In this document: positions 1 through 1,949 of the stretch, one piece after another
Layout: each line of letters begins with the position of its first letter
Position numbering within the stretch: the stretch's first letter is position 1
Source of the DNA: Escherichia phage vB_EcoP-CC2
Reading direction: 5' to 3' (one strand)
Sequence record: OX638291.1
Length of the DNA: 1,949 bases
The notes under the pieces: model-generated
The model's input: only the letters and a program-made list of their open reading frames with translations
The model's database searches: none
What the model was told of the DNA's origin: nothing
Made by a program: the position numbers and the translations under genes

Positions 1-127
1 ATTGGATCGTCCTTAAACTAACACCGAAATAATCAGCTAAGAATTTTTGGTCACATACAACAGCCCCACACGATTTATCTATATTTTGAGCAAAAAAAGA
101 ATATAGCCTAAATGCTCTGGGAACCTT
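1..127. repeat. Terminal direct repeat, left copy (identical to 1823..1949); consistent with a circular molecule or tandem multimer of period 1,822 bp
   Basis: Base-by-base comparison: 1..127 and 1823..1949 are identical over all 127 bp and both run to the window edges. A minus-strand reading frame continues in phase across the implied junction. Confidence 0.95.
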
Positions 128-289
128 CTCAGATATAGAGTCCAACATATTCCAGCCCGCCTTAGTAACCTGCGACCAGTCAGGTGGATTCAACCGATCT
201 CGTTTTTGCTTAGCACTTTTGGATTGATCTTGTGCCTGATGATCTCGCCGTTTTTGCTGTTCGAAATCTTCAAATTGCTGTTCCAGCAT
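1..289 (-). CDS. N-terminal part of the same junction-spanning gene (window-start copy); likely start ATG at 287..289; 1..127 duplicates 1823..1949
   Basis: Minus-strand frame with codons 287..289 down to 2..4 is open and in phase with 1947..1949 across the 1,822-bp period. ATG at 287..289 is preceded on the minus strand by 'AGGTAAGGATGCAAGT' (AAGGA Shine-Dalgarno-like, about 7 nt spacing). Unique part 128..289 encodes MLEQQFEDFEQQKRRDHQAQDQSKSAKQKRDRLNPPDWSQVTKAGWNMLDSISE. Joined product is about 177 aa. An alternative start at ATG 146..148 would give about 131 aa. Confidence 0.5.
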   Translation of the reverse strand, partial: MLEQQFEDFEQQKRRDHQAQDQSKSAKQKRDRLNPPDWSQVTKAGWNMLDSISEKVPRAFRLYSFFAQNIDKSCGAVVCDQKFLADYFGVSLRTIQ

Positions 290-307
290 ACTTGCATCCT
301 TACCTGC

Positions 308-403
308 AACGTTGTTTCGTACCTTACGAAATTTATATCGTACATTACGAAACAACACACGCAAACATGTTTGCGTATACACATGCAAATAACGTTTCGT
401 ATG
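308..403 (-). promoter_or_regulatory. Putative promoter/operator (possibly iteron-type oriV) region upstream of the Rep-like gene
   Basis: Seen directly: two 13-bp palindromic sites 'tcgtaccttacga' (317..329) and 'tcgtacattacga' (338..350), each embedded in a 15-bp direct repeat (317..331 and 338..352, one mismatch) spaced 21 bp apart; perfect 14-bp palindrome 'gcaaacatgtttgc' (361..374); inverted repeat 311..321 with 346..356; 'aacgtttcgta' (391..401) echoing 308..321; 8/9 match to DnaA box TTATNCACA at 375..383 ('gtatacaca'). Minus strand has a 'TATAAAT' -10-like element (complement of about 332..338). No convincing -35 found. Confidence 0.45.
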
Positions 404-409
404 TTGGTG

Positions 410-510
410 TCATAATGCTTTGATTTTTAAGAGAATGTCGATTTTTGCTCTAAAGATCTATCAAAGCACTTTTTTGCTACACAAGATTTAATTAGTTCAT
501 CGAACATTTG
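410..510. other. AT-rich intergenic tract, possible DNA-unwinding element of a vegetative origin
   Basis: Visibly AT-rich non-coding stretch between the repeat/operator cluster and the GC-rich module; contains two of four copies of the octamer 'tttttgct' (443..450, 471..478; others at 203..210 and 251..258). Functional role is inference only. Confidence 0.3.
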
Positions 511-600
511 GGGTGTCGGGGCGAAGCCCTGACCCAGTCACGTAGCGATAGCGGAGTGTATACTGGCTTACTCTTCTGCAAGCCTCTTCAGCCGTGATTT
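511..600. other. ColE1/pMB1-type bom (oriT)-like region with a candidate nic motif
   Basis: 'gggtgtcggggcgaagccctgacccagtcacgtagcgatagcggagtgtatactggcttact' closely resembles, from memory, the pBR322/ColE1 bom segment '...gggtgtcggggcgcagccatgacccagtcacgtagcgatagcggagtgtatactggcttaact...'. By analogy the nick would fall in 'ctgg/ctta' (about 566/567). Not verified by alignment. Confidence 0.5.
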
Positions 601-705
601 TGCCCGATTTCGCGCTCTCCACGTTCAACAGCTCGATCATGTTTTTGCAGTCCGTTCACCGCTAAAACGCCCCGCATCAGTGCGTACGTGCTCAATGTGG
701 TTTCC

Positions 706-772
706 GGTTCTCTTCCGCTTCCTCGCCCACTCGCTCACTAACGTTCGGTCGCTGGGGCTGCGGCGAGCGGTG
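706..772. other. Segment resembling the ColE1 primosome assembly site (pas/ssi) downstream of the ColE1 origin
   Basis: 'tctcttccgcttcctcgcccactcgctcactaacgttcggtcgctggggctgcggcgagcgg' parallels the pBR322/pUC backbone motif 'ctcttccgcttcctcgctcactgactcgctgcgctcggtcgttcggctgcggcgagcgg' (recalled). Functional assignment as a pas site is from general knowledge of ColE1 and is uncertain here. Confidence 0.35.
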
Positions 773-833
773 CCACCTCTCGCATGTTATCGGTGATTCC
801 GCTGTTGTTCTTTCGGGGATGAGTCGCCAGATA

Positions 834-864
834 GCTCTTCAAACGCTCTCAGAAGCTCTCAGAC
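834..864. repeat. Three tandem imperfect copies of a 10-11 bp unit (gctcttcaaac / gctctcagaa / gctctcagac)
   Basis: Read directly from the sequence; unit length is near one helical turn. Function unknown. Confidence 0.4.
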
Positions 865-1075
865 GCACGAAACGGGTTTTAAATGCCCATCAGGGCATGG
901 AAGGCGCGAAAAACGCTTACAGAGGGTTTTAGGAGGTCAGGCGCGCCGATACCCCTAACCAGGGGATTTCAGGTCGCCAGGAACCGCGTCAGCCCCCTGC
1001 AAAGCCCATTTGCACGGAATAGGCAGCCATGCGGTTGGTAGGTGGTCGTAGACCGTCGATGTTACAGCGACGGGG

Positions 1076-1130
1076 GTCTGGGGTTCTCCCCAGACGGTTT
1101 CCGGTTGCGCTCAAGGCGCTGCCGGAACCG
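1076..1130. other. Two adjacent GC-rich stem-loops (possible ssDNA or RNA structural element)
   Basis: Perfect 8-bp stem 'gtctgggg' (1076..1083) / 'ccccagac' (1088..1095) with loop 'ttct'; then an imperfect extended hairpin with arms 'cggtttccgg' (1095..1104) / 'ccggaaccg' (1122..1130) and inner 'gcgc'/'gcgc' stem. No U-tract follows on either strand, so not a canonical intrinsic terminator. Confidence 0.35.
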
Positions 1131-1277
1131 TGGCGGCTCGGTCGTTCTGGAAAACGGGGAGCAAAAAGACGCAAGGGATTTTGAGGCGGCAAAAGAGCAA
1201 TGCAGGATAGACAATCAACTAGAAATTGCATGCAATGTTCTGTGGATTGTCCGCCTACCGCTGGCTCTGTATGGCCA

Positions 1278-1565
1278 TCACTTTTTTCGATATTTATCTA
1301 ACTCAATTACAGGTGCAGGAATTTTTTTCTTCACACTTTTTTTTGGTTTTTGTATTTTTTCATTGTTGCTAACGACAAACATAATTTTCTTTCCATCTTC
1401 ATTGACAATATCAACGGGATTAAACTCCTTATCTTCACAATTCATATATAGATTTATTCCCATTGCATATTCGATATGATATTCATCAATTAACGAATCT
1501 ATTGATCTACATATTTCTAATTTTAGTTCTTCTAATTTCCAACGTGATTCATATTTAACTCTCAT
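1278..1565 (-). CDS. Hypothetical small protein (95 aa), function unknown; immediately downstream of the Rep-like gene on the same strand
   Basis: ORF track 1278..1565 (-), ATG start, TGA stop. Only 12 nt (1566..1577) separate it from the upstream stop, suggesting co-transcription or translational coupling. Weak SD-like 'TAGGT' about 9 nt upstream. Mixed acidic N-terminal half and Lys-rich C-terminal tail (KIQKPKKSVKKK...KYRKK). AT-rich like the upstream gene. I do not recognise the sequence. Confidence 0.5.
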   Translation of the reverse strand: MRVKYESRWKLEELKLEICRSIDSLIDEYHIEYAMGINLYMNCEDKEFNPVDIVNEDGKKIMFVVSNNEKIQKPKKSVKKKIPAPVIELDKYRKK

Positions 1566-1577
1566 AGCGCATCATAC

Positions 1578-1949
1578 CTAGTCCAAGTCATGATTAGATG
1601 TCTTAAGCGAGCCTTCAAACTCTTCTCTCCTAGAGAGCATGAGCCGCAACTTGCGATCAATAACGCCATCTTTTTGAGTTAATGTTTTTGCGTTAAACGC
1701 TGCATATTTTTTAGATTTATTATATCCGCGCCATACCTGATACGGATCTAACGCATAAGCATAATAGATACCTACTGGTATTTTCACGATGGCACCAATA
1801 CTTTCTAAATCTCCAATCCAATATTGGATCGTCCTTAAACTAACACCGAAATAATCAGCTAAGAATTTTTGGTCACATACAACAGCCCCACACGATTTAT
1901 CTATATTTTGAGCAAAAAAAGAATATAGCCTAAATGCTCTGGGAACCTT
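1578..1949 (-). CDS. C-terminal part of a junction-spanning gene for a putative replication-initiator-like HTH protein; 5' end truncated by the window edge and continues in 128..289
   Basis: The listed ORF 1578..1787 begins at an internal GTG; the same frame stays open upstream to the window end (manual translation ...KVPRAFRLYSFFAQNIDKSCGAVVCDQKFLADYFGVSLRTIQYWIGDLESIGAI-VKIPVGIYY...HDLD, stop TAG at 1578..1580). The motif 'QKFLADYFGVSLRTIQYWIGDLESIGAI' has the pattern of a (winged) helix-turn-helix as found in small plasmid/phage Rep proteins. Family assignment is inference; no search was run. Confidence 0.6.
   Translation of the reverse strand, partial: KVPRAFRLYSFFAQNIDKSCGAVVCDQKFLADYFGVSLRTIQYWIGDLESIGAIVKIPVGIYYAYALDPYQVWRGYNKSKKYAAFNAKTLTQKDGVIDRKLRLMLSRREEFEGSLKTSNHDLD
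1823..1949. repeat. Terminal direct repeat, right copy (identical to 1..127)
   Basis: Same comparison as for the left copy; offset between copies is exactly 1,822 bp. Confidence 0.95.

What the first reader, a model, noticed from the sequence alone, without database searches (positions are those of the whole stretch)
511..600. ColE1-type bom/oriT-like site on a replicon with no mobilization genes
Bases 518..574 are near-identical (from recall) to the ColE1/pBR322 bom region, including the 'gtatactgg/ctta' nic-site context. No relaxase or accessory mob gene fits in the remaining sequence, so the element would be mobilizable only in trans by a co-resident ColE1-type MOB system.
Basis: partly seen in the sequence, partly recalled or inferred. 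Interest (0 to 1): 0.55.

Follow-up and report, generated by a model that had tools for sequence, protein, structure and literature searches.

The report
Orphan ColE1-type transfer origin, tiny plasmid
A 1.8-kb cryptic E. coli plasmid carries a near-perfect copy of the ColE1 'bom' transfer origin but no mobilization genes, so it most likely spreads by borrowing the nicking enzyme of a co-resident ColE1-type plasmid; this is a real but already familiar kind of plasmid hitch-hiking.

Summary
Window 511-570 matches the ColE1 bom/oriT (ColE1 1521-1462) at 59/60 bases, and pBR322-type vector sequence at 58/60, including the GTATACTGG/CTTA nick context. The window is a complete 1822-bp circular plasmid of the Col(MG828) type. 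It has two genes, a RepL-like initiator and a family-restricted 95-aa ORF. It has no RNAI/RNAII and no relaxase or recognisable accessory gene. The bom core lies at the left edge of a 765-bp GC-rich non-coding module (507-1271) that tiny plasmids with different rep genes share. The orphan copy keeps 49 of the 52 positions invariant among MbeC-MbeA-linked bom sites. It is also more conserved than the rest of the module (0-2 mismatches in 60, against 9-18% divergence). Host strains commonly carry small MbeA/MbeC plasmids and conjugative plasmids. Best explanation (about 0.75): a functional orphan oriT, nicked in trans by a ColE1-family (MOB-HEN) relaxosome and exported by a conjugative plasmid's secretion system. 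Function is inferred, not shown, and the sequence 5' of the hairpin differs from ColE1. The class (pOriT, relaxase-in-trans) is well described, so this is a new member of a known kind and of low interest.

The parts
511..570 (+). bom/oriT core: 60-nt block homologous to ColE1 bom (ColE1 1521-1462)
   Evidence: 59/60 identity to ColE1 and 58/60 to pBR322-type vector loci. It keeps 49 of 52 columns invariant among MbeC-MbeA-linked sites. It shows 0-2 mismatches in 60 among small-plasmid lineages whose surrounding module differs by 9-18%.
511..535 (+). Imperfect inverted repeat (hairpin) 5' of the nick: GGGTGTCGGGGC-GAA-GCCCTGACCC
   Evidence: Predicted as a stem-loop on the + strand (515-533 in the MFE structure). 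Relaxase-linked sites show the paired change GGGTG..GACCC <-> GGGTT..GAACC. CloDF13 has a positional homologue.
534..566 (+). Second imperfect inverted repeat (CCAGTCAC ... GTG..ACTGG) whose 3' foot abuts the inferred nick
   Evidence: MFE fold of 505-575 on the + strand gives -11.5 kcal/mol, z = -1.8 against shuffles. The thermodynamic support is modest.
566..567 (+). Inferred nick position (CTGG|CTTA) on the + strand
   Evidence: Inferred by homology. Window 563-570 corresponds to ColE1 1469-1462. The ColE1 nick 5'-CTGG/CTTA-3' is recalled from Varsaki et al. 2003 / Bastia 1978 and could not be verified in the held library. [quoted passage not shown]
507..1271 (.). GC-rich (about 57%) non-coding module shared by tiny plasmids with different rep genes; bom sits at its left edge
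   Evidence: About 95% identity over 507-1267/1271 to 1459- and 1552-bp plasmids. Found in hundreds of 1.5-2.8 kb plasmids. GC 0.565-0.60 here against 0.30-0.41 elsewhere in the plasmid.
665..784 (.). ssi / primosome-assembly-like block collinear with ColE1 1410-1295
   Evidence: 70% identity to ColE1 in the same order and orientation as bom. The core 713-775 is nearly identical in pSCU-175-6. The block is also conserved in CloDF13. In ColE1 it lies about 100-210 nt downstream of the origin as inferred from the RNAI position. The function is inferred from recalled literature.
300..470 (-). rep control / probable origin region: repeated TTCGTA/TACGAA motifs, palindromes and a promoter-like site
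   Evidence: Repeats 311-401 and palindrome 359-376. Promoter-like site 441-412 on the - strand.
1..289 (-). 5' part of the RepL-like replication gene (continues across the circle junction into 1578-1822)
   Evidence: 177-aa ORF = complement(join(1578..1822,1..289)). Pfam RepL 22.5 bits against a cutoff of 20.3. Annotated RepL in identical records.
1578..1822 (-). 3' part of the RepL-like replication gene
1278..1565 (-). 95-aa ORF of unknown function, restricted to this plasmid family
   Evidence: 56 homologues, all at least 69% identical and on contigs of about 1-10 kb. No Pfam or NCBIfam family. No similarity to MbeC. AlphaFold model pLDDT 46.
1823..1949 (.). Terminal redundancy of the window (identical to 1-127), showing a closed 1822-bp circle
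   Evidence: 100% direct repeat with spacing 1822. 1822-bp circular records match end to end.

Best explanation
Window 511-570 is an orphan ColE1-family (MOB-HEN / MOBP5) origin of transfer on a Rep-dependent Col(MG828)-type cryptic plasmid.

Proposed mechanism:
- In a cell that also holds a ColE1-type mobilizable plasmid, that plasmid's accessory protein (MbeC-type) and relaxase (MbeA-type) assemble on the hairpin-plus-nick region.
- The relaxase cuts the + strand between G566 and C567 (CTGG|CTTA) and stays attached to the 5' end.
- The coupling protein and type IV secretion system of a co-resident conjugative plasmid (IncF, IncI, IncP and others) export the strand 5'->3', so 567 onward enters the recipient first.
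- The relaxase reseals the strand at the regenerated nick.
- The plasmid's own RepL-like replicon then maintains it.

The plasmid therefore depends on two helpers.

Shown here: sequence identity, conservation pattern, absence of mob genes, and presence of helpers in host strains.

Inferred: the nick position and strand, relaxosome assembly, and actual transfer.
For: - 59/60 identity to the ColE1 bom including the nick core, and 58/60 to pBR322-type bom.
- The orphan copy keeps 49 of 52 positions invariant among seven distinct bom sites that sit next to mbeC-mbeA operons. The three differences are one hairpin-loop base and two bases just outside the hairpin.
- Linked sites vary mainly in the middle (536-555) and 3' of the nick, and the window is ColE1-like in the middle as well.
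- Among small-plasmid lineages the 60-nt core has 0-2 mismatches while the rest of the shared module is 9-18% divergent (one-sided Fisher p 0.001-0.06 per pair). This indicates constraint.
- There are no relaxase or accessory genes and no RNAI.
- Helpers co-reside. pSCU-175-6 encodes MbeA (61% overall, about 90% over the first 140 residues inspected) and MbeC (89%) in the same strain as a 99.8% copy of this plasmid. p32-4_G has an identical MbeD. Small MOBP plasmids occur in AVS0578 and UPEC-455U, and an IncF conjugative plasmid in S9.
- In PMC8703133, 5 of 6 closed genomes with Col(MG828) plasmids also carry Rom/MobC/MbeD plasmids.
- Copies at least 98.9% identical occur in E. coli from several continents and in three Shigella species, consistent with horizontal spread.
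- Precedent exists: orphan ColE-type oriTs transfer when mob is supplied in trans, and pOriT plasmids hijack pMOB relaxases (PMC9282650, PMC10123127, PMC11389934).
Against: - No experiment shows nicking or transfer of this plasmid.
- ColE1-like sequence stops at about 507-511. The two bases just 5' of the hairpin, which are invariant GC in linked sites, are GG or TG in all orphan copies. Annotated ColE-type oriTs span about 83-89 bp (PMC9282650), against 60-64 bp conserved here, so part of an accessory-protein site could be missing.
- MOB-suite (via PLSDB) types the 1822/1902/1906-bp plasmids as non-mobilizable.
- The helper pSCU-175-6 has a somewhat different bom centre (one indel and four substitutions), so cross-recognition is assumed.
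- The co-residence sampling was partial and not controlled for plasmid number.
- The high conservation could also reflect repeated gene conversion from abundant ColE1-type plasmids.
Confidence: 0.75

Rival explanations
1. The segment is a non-functional relic: a piece of a ColE1-type plasmid (bom plus ssi) captured by recombination and carried along passively. It is either too truncated on its 5' side to assemble a relaxosome or is simply not used.
For: ColE1-like sequence ends at 507-511, and the two flanking bases that are invariant in relaxase-linked sites differ in all orphan copies. MOB-suite types the plasmid as non-mobilizable. No transfer data were found in ten literature searches.
Against: The 60-nt core is markedly better conserved than the adjacent module in several diverged lineages. 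It is retained on plasmids with different rep genes. It survived an 84-bp deletion nearby in this lineage. A plasmid of only 1.8 kb would be expected to lose useless DNA.
Confidence: 0.15
2. The hairpin region serves the plasmid's own replication rather than transfer. Together with the downstream primosome-assembly-like block it would act as a single-strand initiation or lagging-strand origin.
For: bom and the ssi-like block travel together as one module in many tiny plasmids. Both strands can form hairpins. A RepL-like initiator could replicate through single-stranded intermediates (the family assignment is weak).
Against: The nick-proximal 15 nt (GTGTATACTGGCTTA) is conserved exactly as in relaxase-linked sites, which a priming signal would not require. 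Folding energies are unremarkable (z -1.8 to +0.7). In ColE1 the priming function maps to the separate downstream block, not to bom (recalled literature).
Confidence: 0.06
3. The site is used by a different relaxase family. A CloDF13-type (MOBC) relaxase would nick in the 5' arm of the hairpin (GGGTG|TCGGGG), either instead of or in addition to MbeA-type nicking at CTGG|CTTA.
For: The published CloDF13 nick 5'-GGGTG/GTCGGG-3' (PMC5935869, citing Nunez & de la Cruz 2001) lies in a CloDF13 hairpin (from 9752, TTTGTGGGTGGTCGGGCGTGAGCCTGAC). That hairpin is a positional homologue of window 505-533, on the same side of the shared ssi block and at a similar distance from it.
Against: The motif differs by one base or indel (GGGTGTCGGGG against GGGTGGTCGGG). 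No other bom similarity to CloDF13 was detectable. No CloDF13-type mob genes were seen in the sampled host plasmids.
Confidence: 0.05

Closest known systems
ColE1 bom / oriT (MOB-HEN, MOBP5 relaxosome MbeA-MbeC)
   Same: 59/60 identical core with the same hairpin, spacing and nick context. It has the same order and orientation relative to the downstream ssi-like block.
   Different: There is no cis-linked mbeC-mbeA operon, no rom and no RNAI/RNAII replicon. Sequence 5' of the hairpin and 3' of CTTA is unrelated to ColE1.
pBR322 bom (a mob-less ColE1-type vector that is mobilizable only when Mob proteins are supplied in trans)
   Same: It also has a cis-acting bom and no functional mob genes. 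58/60 identical.
   Different: pBR322 is an engineered pMB1 replicon that keeps the natural 5' flank and a 29-aa mbeC remnant. This is a natural Rep-dependent plasmid.
Natural oriT-only plasmids (pOriT; relaxase-in-trans), for example pST1030-3 and pSe-Kan (orphan ColE-type oriT), and pBuzz and pCERC7 (captured oriTs of conjugative plasmids)
   Same: A small plasmid with an oriT but no relaxase, dependent on co-resident elements (PMC10123127, PMC9282650, PMC11389934).
   Different: pSe-Kan and pST1030-3 are ColE1-type replicons that probably lost mob. Here the oriT sits on an unrelated AT-rich Rep replicon, which fits capture rather than reduction. pBuzz and pCERC7 mimic conjugative-plasmid oriTs, so they need one helper, whereas this one mimics a mobilizable-plasmid oriT and needs two.
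pKL1-like 1.5-kb cryptic plasmids and pMG828-1 (the PlasmidFinder Col(MG828) group)
   Same: They share the 765-bp GC-rich module with the same bom core. pMG828-1 also shares the RepL-like gene and ORF95 at about 89% identity.
   Different: The 1.5-kb plasmids have a different rep gene. Relatives carry an extra 84 bp or so with an inverted second copy of the hairpin, which this plasmid lacks.

Membership tests
ColE1-type (MOB-HEN) oriT/bom | Sequence homology to the experimentally defined ColE1 bom, including the nick core CTGG/CTTA | tested here: met
   59/60 over window 511-570 against ColE1 1521-1462.
ColE1-type (MOB-HEN) oriT/bom | Inverted repeat (hairpin) 5' of the nick on the nicked strand, at the conserved distance | tested here: met
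   Hairpin 511-535 with the same spacing to the nick as in all linked sites. Predicted stem-loop. A paired change in the stem among linked sites supports its relevance.
ColE1-type (MOB-HEN) oriT/bom | All positions that are invariant among bom sites adjacent to mbeC-mbeA operons | tested here: inconclusive
   49 of 52 are kept. The differences are one loop base and the two bases just 5' of the hairpin. The sample was only seven distinct linked sites, and 14 of the invariant columns were fixed by the search pattern for six of the eight sequences.
ColE1-type (MOB-HEN) oriT/bom | Full annotated oriT span (about 83-89 bp in oriTDB-based annotations), including the 5' flank | tested here: not met
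   Similarity to ColE1-type plasmids is limited to about 60-64 nt (507/511-570). The span figure comes from PMC9282650. Whether the missing flank is needed is unknown.
ColE1-type (MOB-HEN) oriT/bom | Site- and strand-specific cleavage by an MbeA-type relaxase; bom-dependent mobilization | not testable with these tools
   This requires nicking and mating assays.
pOriT (oriT-only, relaxase-in-trans plasmid) | Carries a recognisable oriT | tested here: met
pOriT (oriT-only, relaxase-in-trans plasmid) | Encodes no relaxase, coupling protein or mating-pair genes | tested here: met
   There are only two credible genes. No mobilization family appears in Pfam or NCBIfam for any ORF of at least 47 aa. 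ORF95 is unrelated to MbeC by BLASTP, but its fold is unresolved.
pOriT (oriT-only, relaxase-in-trans plasmid) | Co-occurs with elements that encode the cognate relaxase and a conjugative system | tested here: met
   MbeA/MbeC or MbeD plasmids are present in SCU-175 and 32-4. Small MOBP plasmids are present in AVS0578 and UPEC-455U, and an IncF plasmid in S9. Five of six strains in PMC8703133 show the same. The sampling was partial and had no formal control.
ColE1-type replicon | RNAII primer / RNAI antisense control | tested here: not met
   No RNAI (RF00106) hit in the window even at E <= 1, whereas ColE1 scores 73.8 bits. No similarity to the ColE1 origin region. The plasmid is therefore not a ColE1-family replicon.
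RepL-family replicon (Pfam PF05732) | Rep protein matches the RepL profile above the gathering threshold | tested here: met
   22.5 bits against a cutoff of 20.3, covering 57-136 of 164 profile positions. This is a marginal match and says nothing about the replication mode.

The most novel reading that the evidence does not exclude
The 60-nt segment may be a dual-specificity transfer origin inside a portable mobility-and-priming cassette (507-1271) that unrelated minimal replicons exchange. Its hairpin arm (GGGTG|TCGGGG) would be a positional homologue of the CloDF13 nick used by MOBC relaxases, while CTGG|CTTA serves MbeA-type relaxases. One tiny plasmid could then hitch on two unrelated relaxase families.
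Probability: 0.07. Interest if true: 0.5.

Novelty: new member of a known kind. Interest (0 to 1): 0.2.

Why it matters
If the site is functional, these very common 1.5-2 kb cryptic plasmids are not non-mobilizable, as MOB-suite labels the 1822/1902/1906-bp forms. They would be second-order hitch-hikers that need both a ColE1-type mobilizable plasmid and a conjugative plasmid. That affects plasmid-mobility predictions in surveillance pipelines. It also has some practical relevance, because one member (pER24y-8ksm) has already acquired a strA-strB transposon. Conceptually it adds an example of oriT capture by an unrelated minimal replicon to a class that is already well documented. It does not open a new question.

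Tried and rejected
- **Rfam, whole window, E <= 1:** only chance-level hits and no RNAI.
- **Xer/cer-type core search:** nothing in the window, while the ColE1 positive control was found.
- **CloDF13 as an alternative template:** blastn finds only the ssi-like block and not bom. A short hairpin homologue was found later by motif search.
- **Junction at the nick:** I considered that the end of ColE1 similarity at CTTA marks a relaxase-made recombination junction. I rejected this because all ColE1-type plasmids diverge from each other 3' of CTTA, and pSCU-175-6 still shows residual similarity there.
- **Larger plasmids as bom-junction cointegrates:** rejected. NC_024968 is a transposon insertion at 1267-1274, and NZ_CP019270 is a multimer.
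- **Genome-collection scan with a 14-mer:** most of the 120 loci were chance matches, and only about 21 carried a true bom.
- **AlphaFold2 model of ORF95:** pLDDT 46, so no fold search was run.
- **Literature:** the Ares-Arroyo supplementary tables are not held and Varsaki 2009 is not held. I found no paper stating the ColE1 nick sequence and none describing transfer of Col(MG828) plasmids.

Full report
**What the window is.** The first 127 bases are repeated exactly at 1823-1949, so the window is a closed circle of 1822 bp read slightly past its start. It matches end to end, at 98.9-100% identity, a set of circular plasmid records of about 1822 bp (one is 1812 bp). These come from E. coli and from Shigella dysenteriae, S. 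sonnei and S. flexneri, and are typed Col(MG828). It matches pMG828-1 and other 1902/1906-bp relatives at about 89%.

Two genes lie on the minus strand. One is a 177-aa RepL-like protein that spans the junction, complement(join(1578..1822,1..289)), with Pfam RepL at 22.5 bits against a cutoff of 20.3. The other is a 95-aa ORF (1278-1565) found only in this plasmid family. Upstream of rep there are repeated TTCGTA/TACGAA motifs and palindromes (311-401) and a promoter-like site. Together these look like the replication-control region. Rfam finds no RNAI or any other family, so this is not a ColE1-type replicon.

**Check of the observation.** Aligning the 1822-bp unit with the ColE1 record itself (NC_001371) gives 59/60 identities without gaps between window 511-570 and ColE1 1521-1462 on the complementary strand (E = 2e-19). 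The block ends with GTGTATACTGGCTTA.

Several loci from the genome-collection scan are evidently pBR322-type vector sequence. Two carry the start of bla, and four carry a 29-aa mbeC remnant. They match the window at 58/60. The block is 511-570 rather than 518-574, and 571-600 is not ColE1-like. A 121-nt query around the site finds 4778 PLSDB plasmids, 4392 of them typed mobilizable.

**Anatomy.** The + strand contains an imperfect hairpin, GGGTGTCGGGGC-GAA-GCCCTGACCC (511-535). A second imperfect inverted repeat (CCAGTCAC...GTG..ACTGG, 534-566) follows, with its 3' foot at the inferred nick. The fold is only modestly better than shuffled sequence (-11.5 kcal/mol, z = -1.8).

Window 563-570 (CTGGCTTA) corresponds to ColE1 1469-1462. 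From memory of Varsaki et al. 2003 and Bastia 1978, the ColE1 nick is 5'-CTGG/CTTA-3' on that strand. That places the nick between G566 and C567 on the window's + strand. I could not verify this in the held library, but the strand assignment agrees with PMC9282650.

**Context.** The bom core lies at the left edge of a GC-rich (about 57%) non-coding module, 507-1271. Plasmids of 1459, 1552, 1603, 1902 and 1906 bp share this module at roughly 90-95%, and several of them have different rep genes.

Within the module, 665-784 is collinear with ColE1 1410-1295 at 70% identity. Its core (713-775) is almost identical in the natural ColE1-type plasmid pSCU-175-6, and it is also conserved in CloDF13. 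In ColE1 this block lies 100-210 nt beyond the origin, as inferred from the RNAI position. From recalled literature, that is where the primosome-assembly (n'/PriA) sites map.

The plasmid therefore looks like a chimera: an AT-rich Rep replicon joined to a bom-plus-ssi segment of ColE1-type ancestry, without the RNAII origin.

**Is the orphan site likely to work?** Three lines of evidence bear on this.

1. *Comparison with relaxase-linked sites.* I collected bom sites that sit next to an mbeC-mbeA operon: ColE1, pSCU-175-6 and six sites in five loci from the genome scan, giving seven distinct sequences. Fifty-two alignment columns are invariant among them, and the window keeps 49. It differs only in one hairpin-loop base and in the two bases just 5' of the hairpin, where all orphan copies diverge. 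Linked sites vary mostly in the centre (536-555) and 3' of CTTA. They also show a paired change in the hairpin (GGGTG..GACCC <-> GGGTT..GAACC).
2. *Conservation among the small plasmids.* The 60-nt core has 0-2 mismatches, whereas the rest of the shared module is 9-18% divergent (one-sided Fisher p 0.001-0.06 per pair; the pairs are not independent).
3. *Availability of helpers.*
   - Strain SCU-175 holds a 99.8% copy of this plasmid and also pSCU-175-6. That plasmid encodes an MbeA homologue (61% overall, about 90% over the first 140 residues inspected) and an MbeC homologue (89%).
   - Strain 32-4 has a 3372-bp MOBP plasmid with an identical MbeD.
   - AVS0578 and UPEC-455U have small MOBP plasmids.
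   - S9 has an IncF conjugative plasmid.
   - In SCU-176 the two siblings I sampled were not MOBP.
   - In the closed genomes of PMC8703133, five of six strains with Col(MG828) plasmids also carry Rom/MobC/MbeD plasmids, alongside conjugative plasmids.

**Absence of mob genes.** None of the ORFs matches a relaxase or accessory family in Pfam or NCBIfam. ORF95 shows no similarity to MbeC. Its AlphaFold model is unreliable (pLDDT 46). The model begins with a long helix rather than the strand-helix-helix of RHH accessory proteins, which is only a weak hint.

**Best explanation and rivals.** The most likely reading (about 0.75) is an orphan ColE1-family oriT used in trans. An MbeC/MbeA-type relaxosome from a co-resident mobilizable plasmid would nick at 566|567, and a conjugative plasmid's coupling protein and secretion system would export the strand.

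This matches the documented behaviour of bom-only plasmids and of natural orphan ColE-type oriTs. pSe-Kan is not moved by IncP functions alone, and pST1030-3 co-transfers with a mobC-mobABDE plasmid (PMC9282650). It also matches the pOriT class defined by Ares-Arroyo et al. (PMC10123127, PMC11389934).

Three rivals remain:
- A passive relic (about 0.15). This is supported mainly by the missing 5' flank and by MOB-suite's non-mobilizable call.
- A role in the plasmid's own replication (about 0.06).
- Use by a CloDF13-type relaxase at the hairpin arm (about 0.05). CloDF13 has a positional homologue of the hairpin (from 9752), and the published CloDF13 nick GGGTG/GTCGGG falls within it (PMC5935869).

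**Comparison with what is known, and novelty.** The site passes the sequence and architecture tests for a ColE1-type bom. It fails the test of covering the full annotated span, and it cannot be tested for cleavage here. The plasmid is not a ColE1-type replicon. It fits the pOriT definition.

I found no paper that describes this site in Col(MG828) plasmids or shows their transfer. A widely used typing tool labels the 1822/1902/1906-bp forms non-mobilizable, while calling the 1552- and 1603-bp relatives mobilizable although they have the same 60-nt core. The phenomenon itself is well established, so I rate this a new member of a known kind, with low interest (0.2).

**Limits.**
- The nick position rests on recalled literature.
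- The set of linked sites is small, and six of its eight sequences were selected with the nick core as the search pattern.
- Co-residence was sampled, not enumerated.
- Conservation could partly reflect gene conversion from abundant ColE1-type plasmids.

Noticed in passing
window 1-127 and 1823-1949: The two ends are identical, so the window is a complete 1822-bp circular plasmid read past its start. The rep gene spans the junction.
   Followed up: yes
whole window; record NZ_CP090002.1 (L010): The only 100% identical database record is labelled 'Staphylococcus aureus RN6390 plasmid unnamed'. All other copies are from E. coli or Shigella, and the plasmid carries enterobacterial ColE1-type sequences. 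RN6390 is, from memory, a plasmid-free laboratory strain, so this is probably contamination or mislabelling.
   Followed up: partly
window 665-784: This block is collinear with ColE1 1410-1295 (70%), nearly identical in pSCU-175-6, and conserved in CloDF13. It lies where ColE1 has its primosome-assembly (ssi) sites. The hexamer AAGCGG (from memory, a feature of n' sites) is on the minus strand at 716-721, which is the strand that is NOT transferred under the proposed nick. It therefore more likely serves vegetative replication than recipient-strand priming.
   Followed up: partly
window 507-1271: A 765-bp GC-rich non-coding module is shared at about 90-95% by hundreds of 1.5-2.8 kb plasmids with different rep genes. 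Apart from bom and the ssi-like block, its function (about 785-1271) is unknown. There is no Rfam family and no Xer site.
   Followed up: partly
window 792-929; L008 2501-2637, L009 2501-2627: This stretch also occurs at 75-86% identity in the non-coding region about 730 bp from the replication-initiator gene of IncX4 conjugative plasmids. It contains a strong small hairpin (TGCCCATCAGGGCA, 884-897). It may be another origin-associated or priming element.
   Followed up: no
window about 667/668, compared with L002, L004, L005, L006, L033, L131: Relatives carry about 84 bp that are absent here (1906 against 1822 bp). The extra segment includes an inverted second copy of the bom hairpin (GGGGTGTCGGGGTGAAGCCCTGACC) without a nick core. 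The deletion endpoints lie in short similar repeats (ACGCC / ACACC).
   Followed up: partly
window 1267-1274; L140 (NC_024968, pER24y-8ksm): An 8.5-kb plasmid is this same replicon with a Tn5393-like strA-strB (Tn3-family) transposon inserted at the right edge of the GC-rich module. bom, the ssi-like block and rep remain intact, so the family can carry resistance genes.
   Followed up: yes
window 311-401: Five copies of TTCGTA/TACGAA-type motifs in direct and inverted arrangement, plus a perfect 18-bp palindrome (359-376), lie upstream of rep. These are probably iterons or an operator of the RepL-like protein.
   Followed up: no
window 1278-1565 (minus strand): The 95-aa ORF is conserved (at least 69% identity) only within this plasmid family and has a lysine-rich C-terminal tail. 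It matches no family and gave a low-confidence structure model. Its function is unknown, and it is absent from the 1.5-kb relatives.
   Followed up: partly
L002, L003, L004 against L005, L006 (PLSDB typing): MOB-suite labels the 1552- and 1603-bp relatives 'mobilizable' but the 1822/1902/1906-bp plasmids 'non-mobilizable', although all share the same 60-nt bom core. The typing is inconsistent within one module family.
   Followed up: no
L007 (CloDF13) from 9752, compared with window 505-533: CloDF13 has a hairpin (TTTGTGGGTGGTCGGGCGTGAGCCTGAC) that is homologous in sequence and position to the ColE1-type bom hairpin. The published CloDF13 nick lies in its 5' arm. The two mobilization systems therefore appear to nick different points of a related oriT scaffold.
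   Followed up: partly
L141 (NZ_CP019270, 7475 bp) and NZ_CP146569 (3631 bp): Some records are head-to-tail multimers of the small plasmid. No Xer/cer-type site was detectable in the monomer, so these may be real unresolved multimers or assembly artefacts.
   Followed up: no
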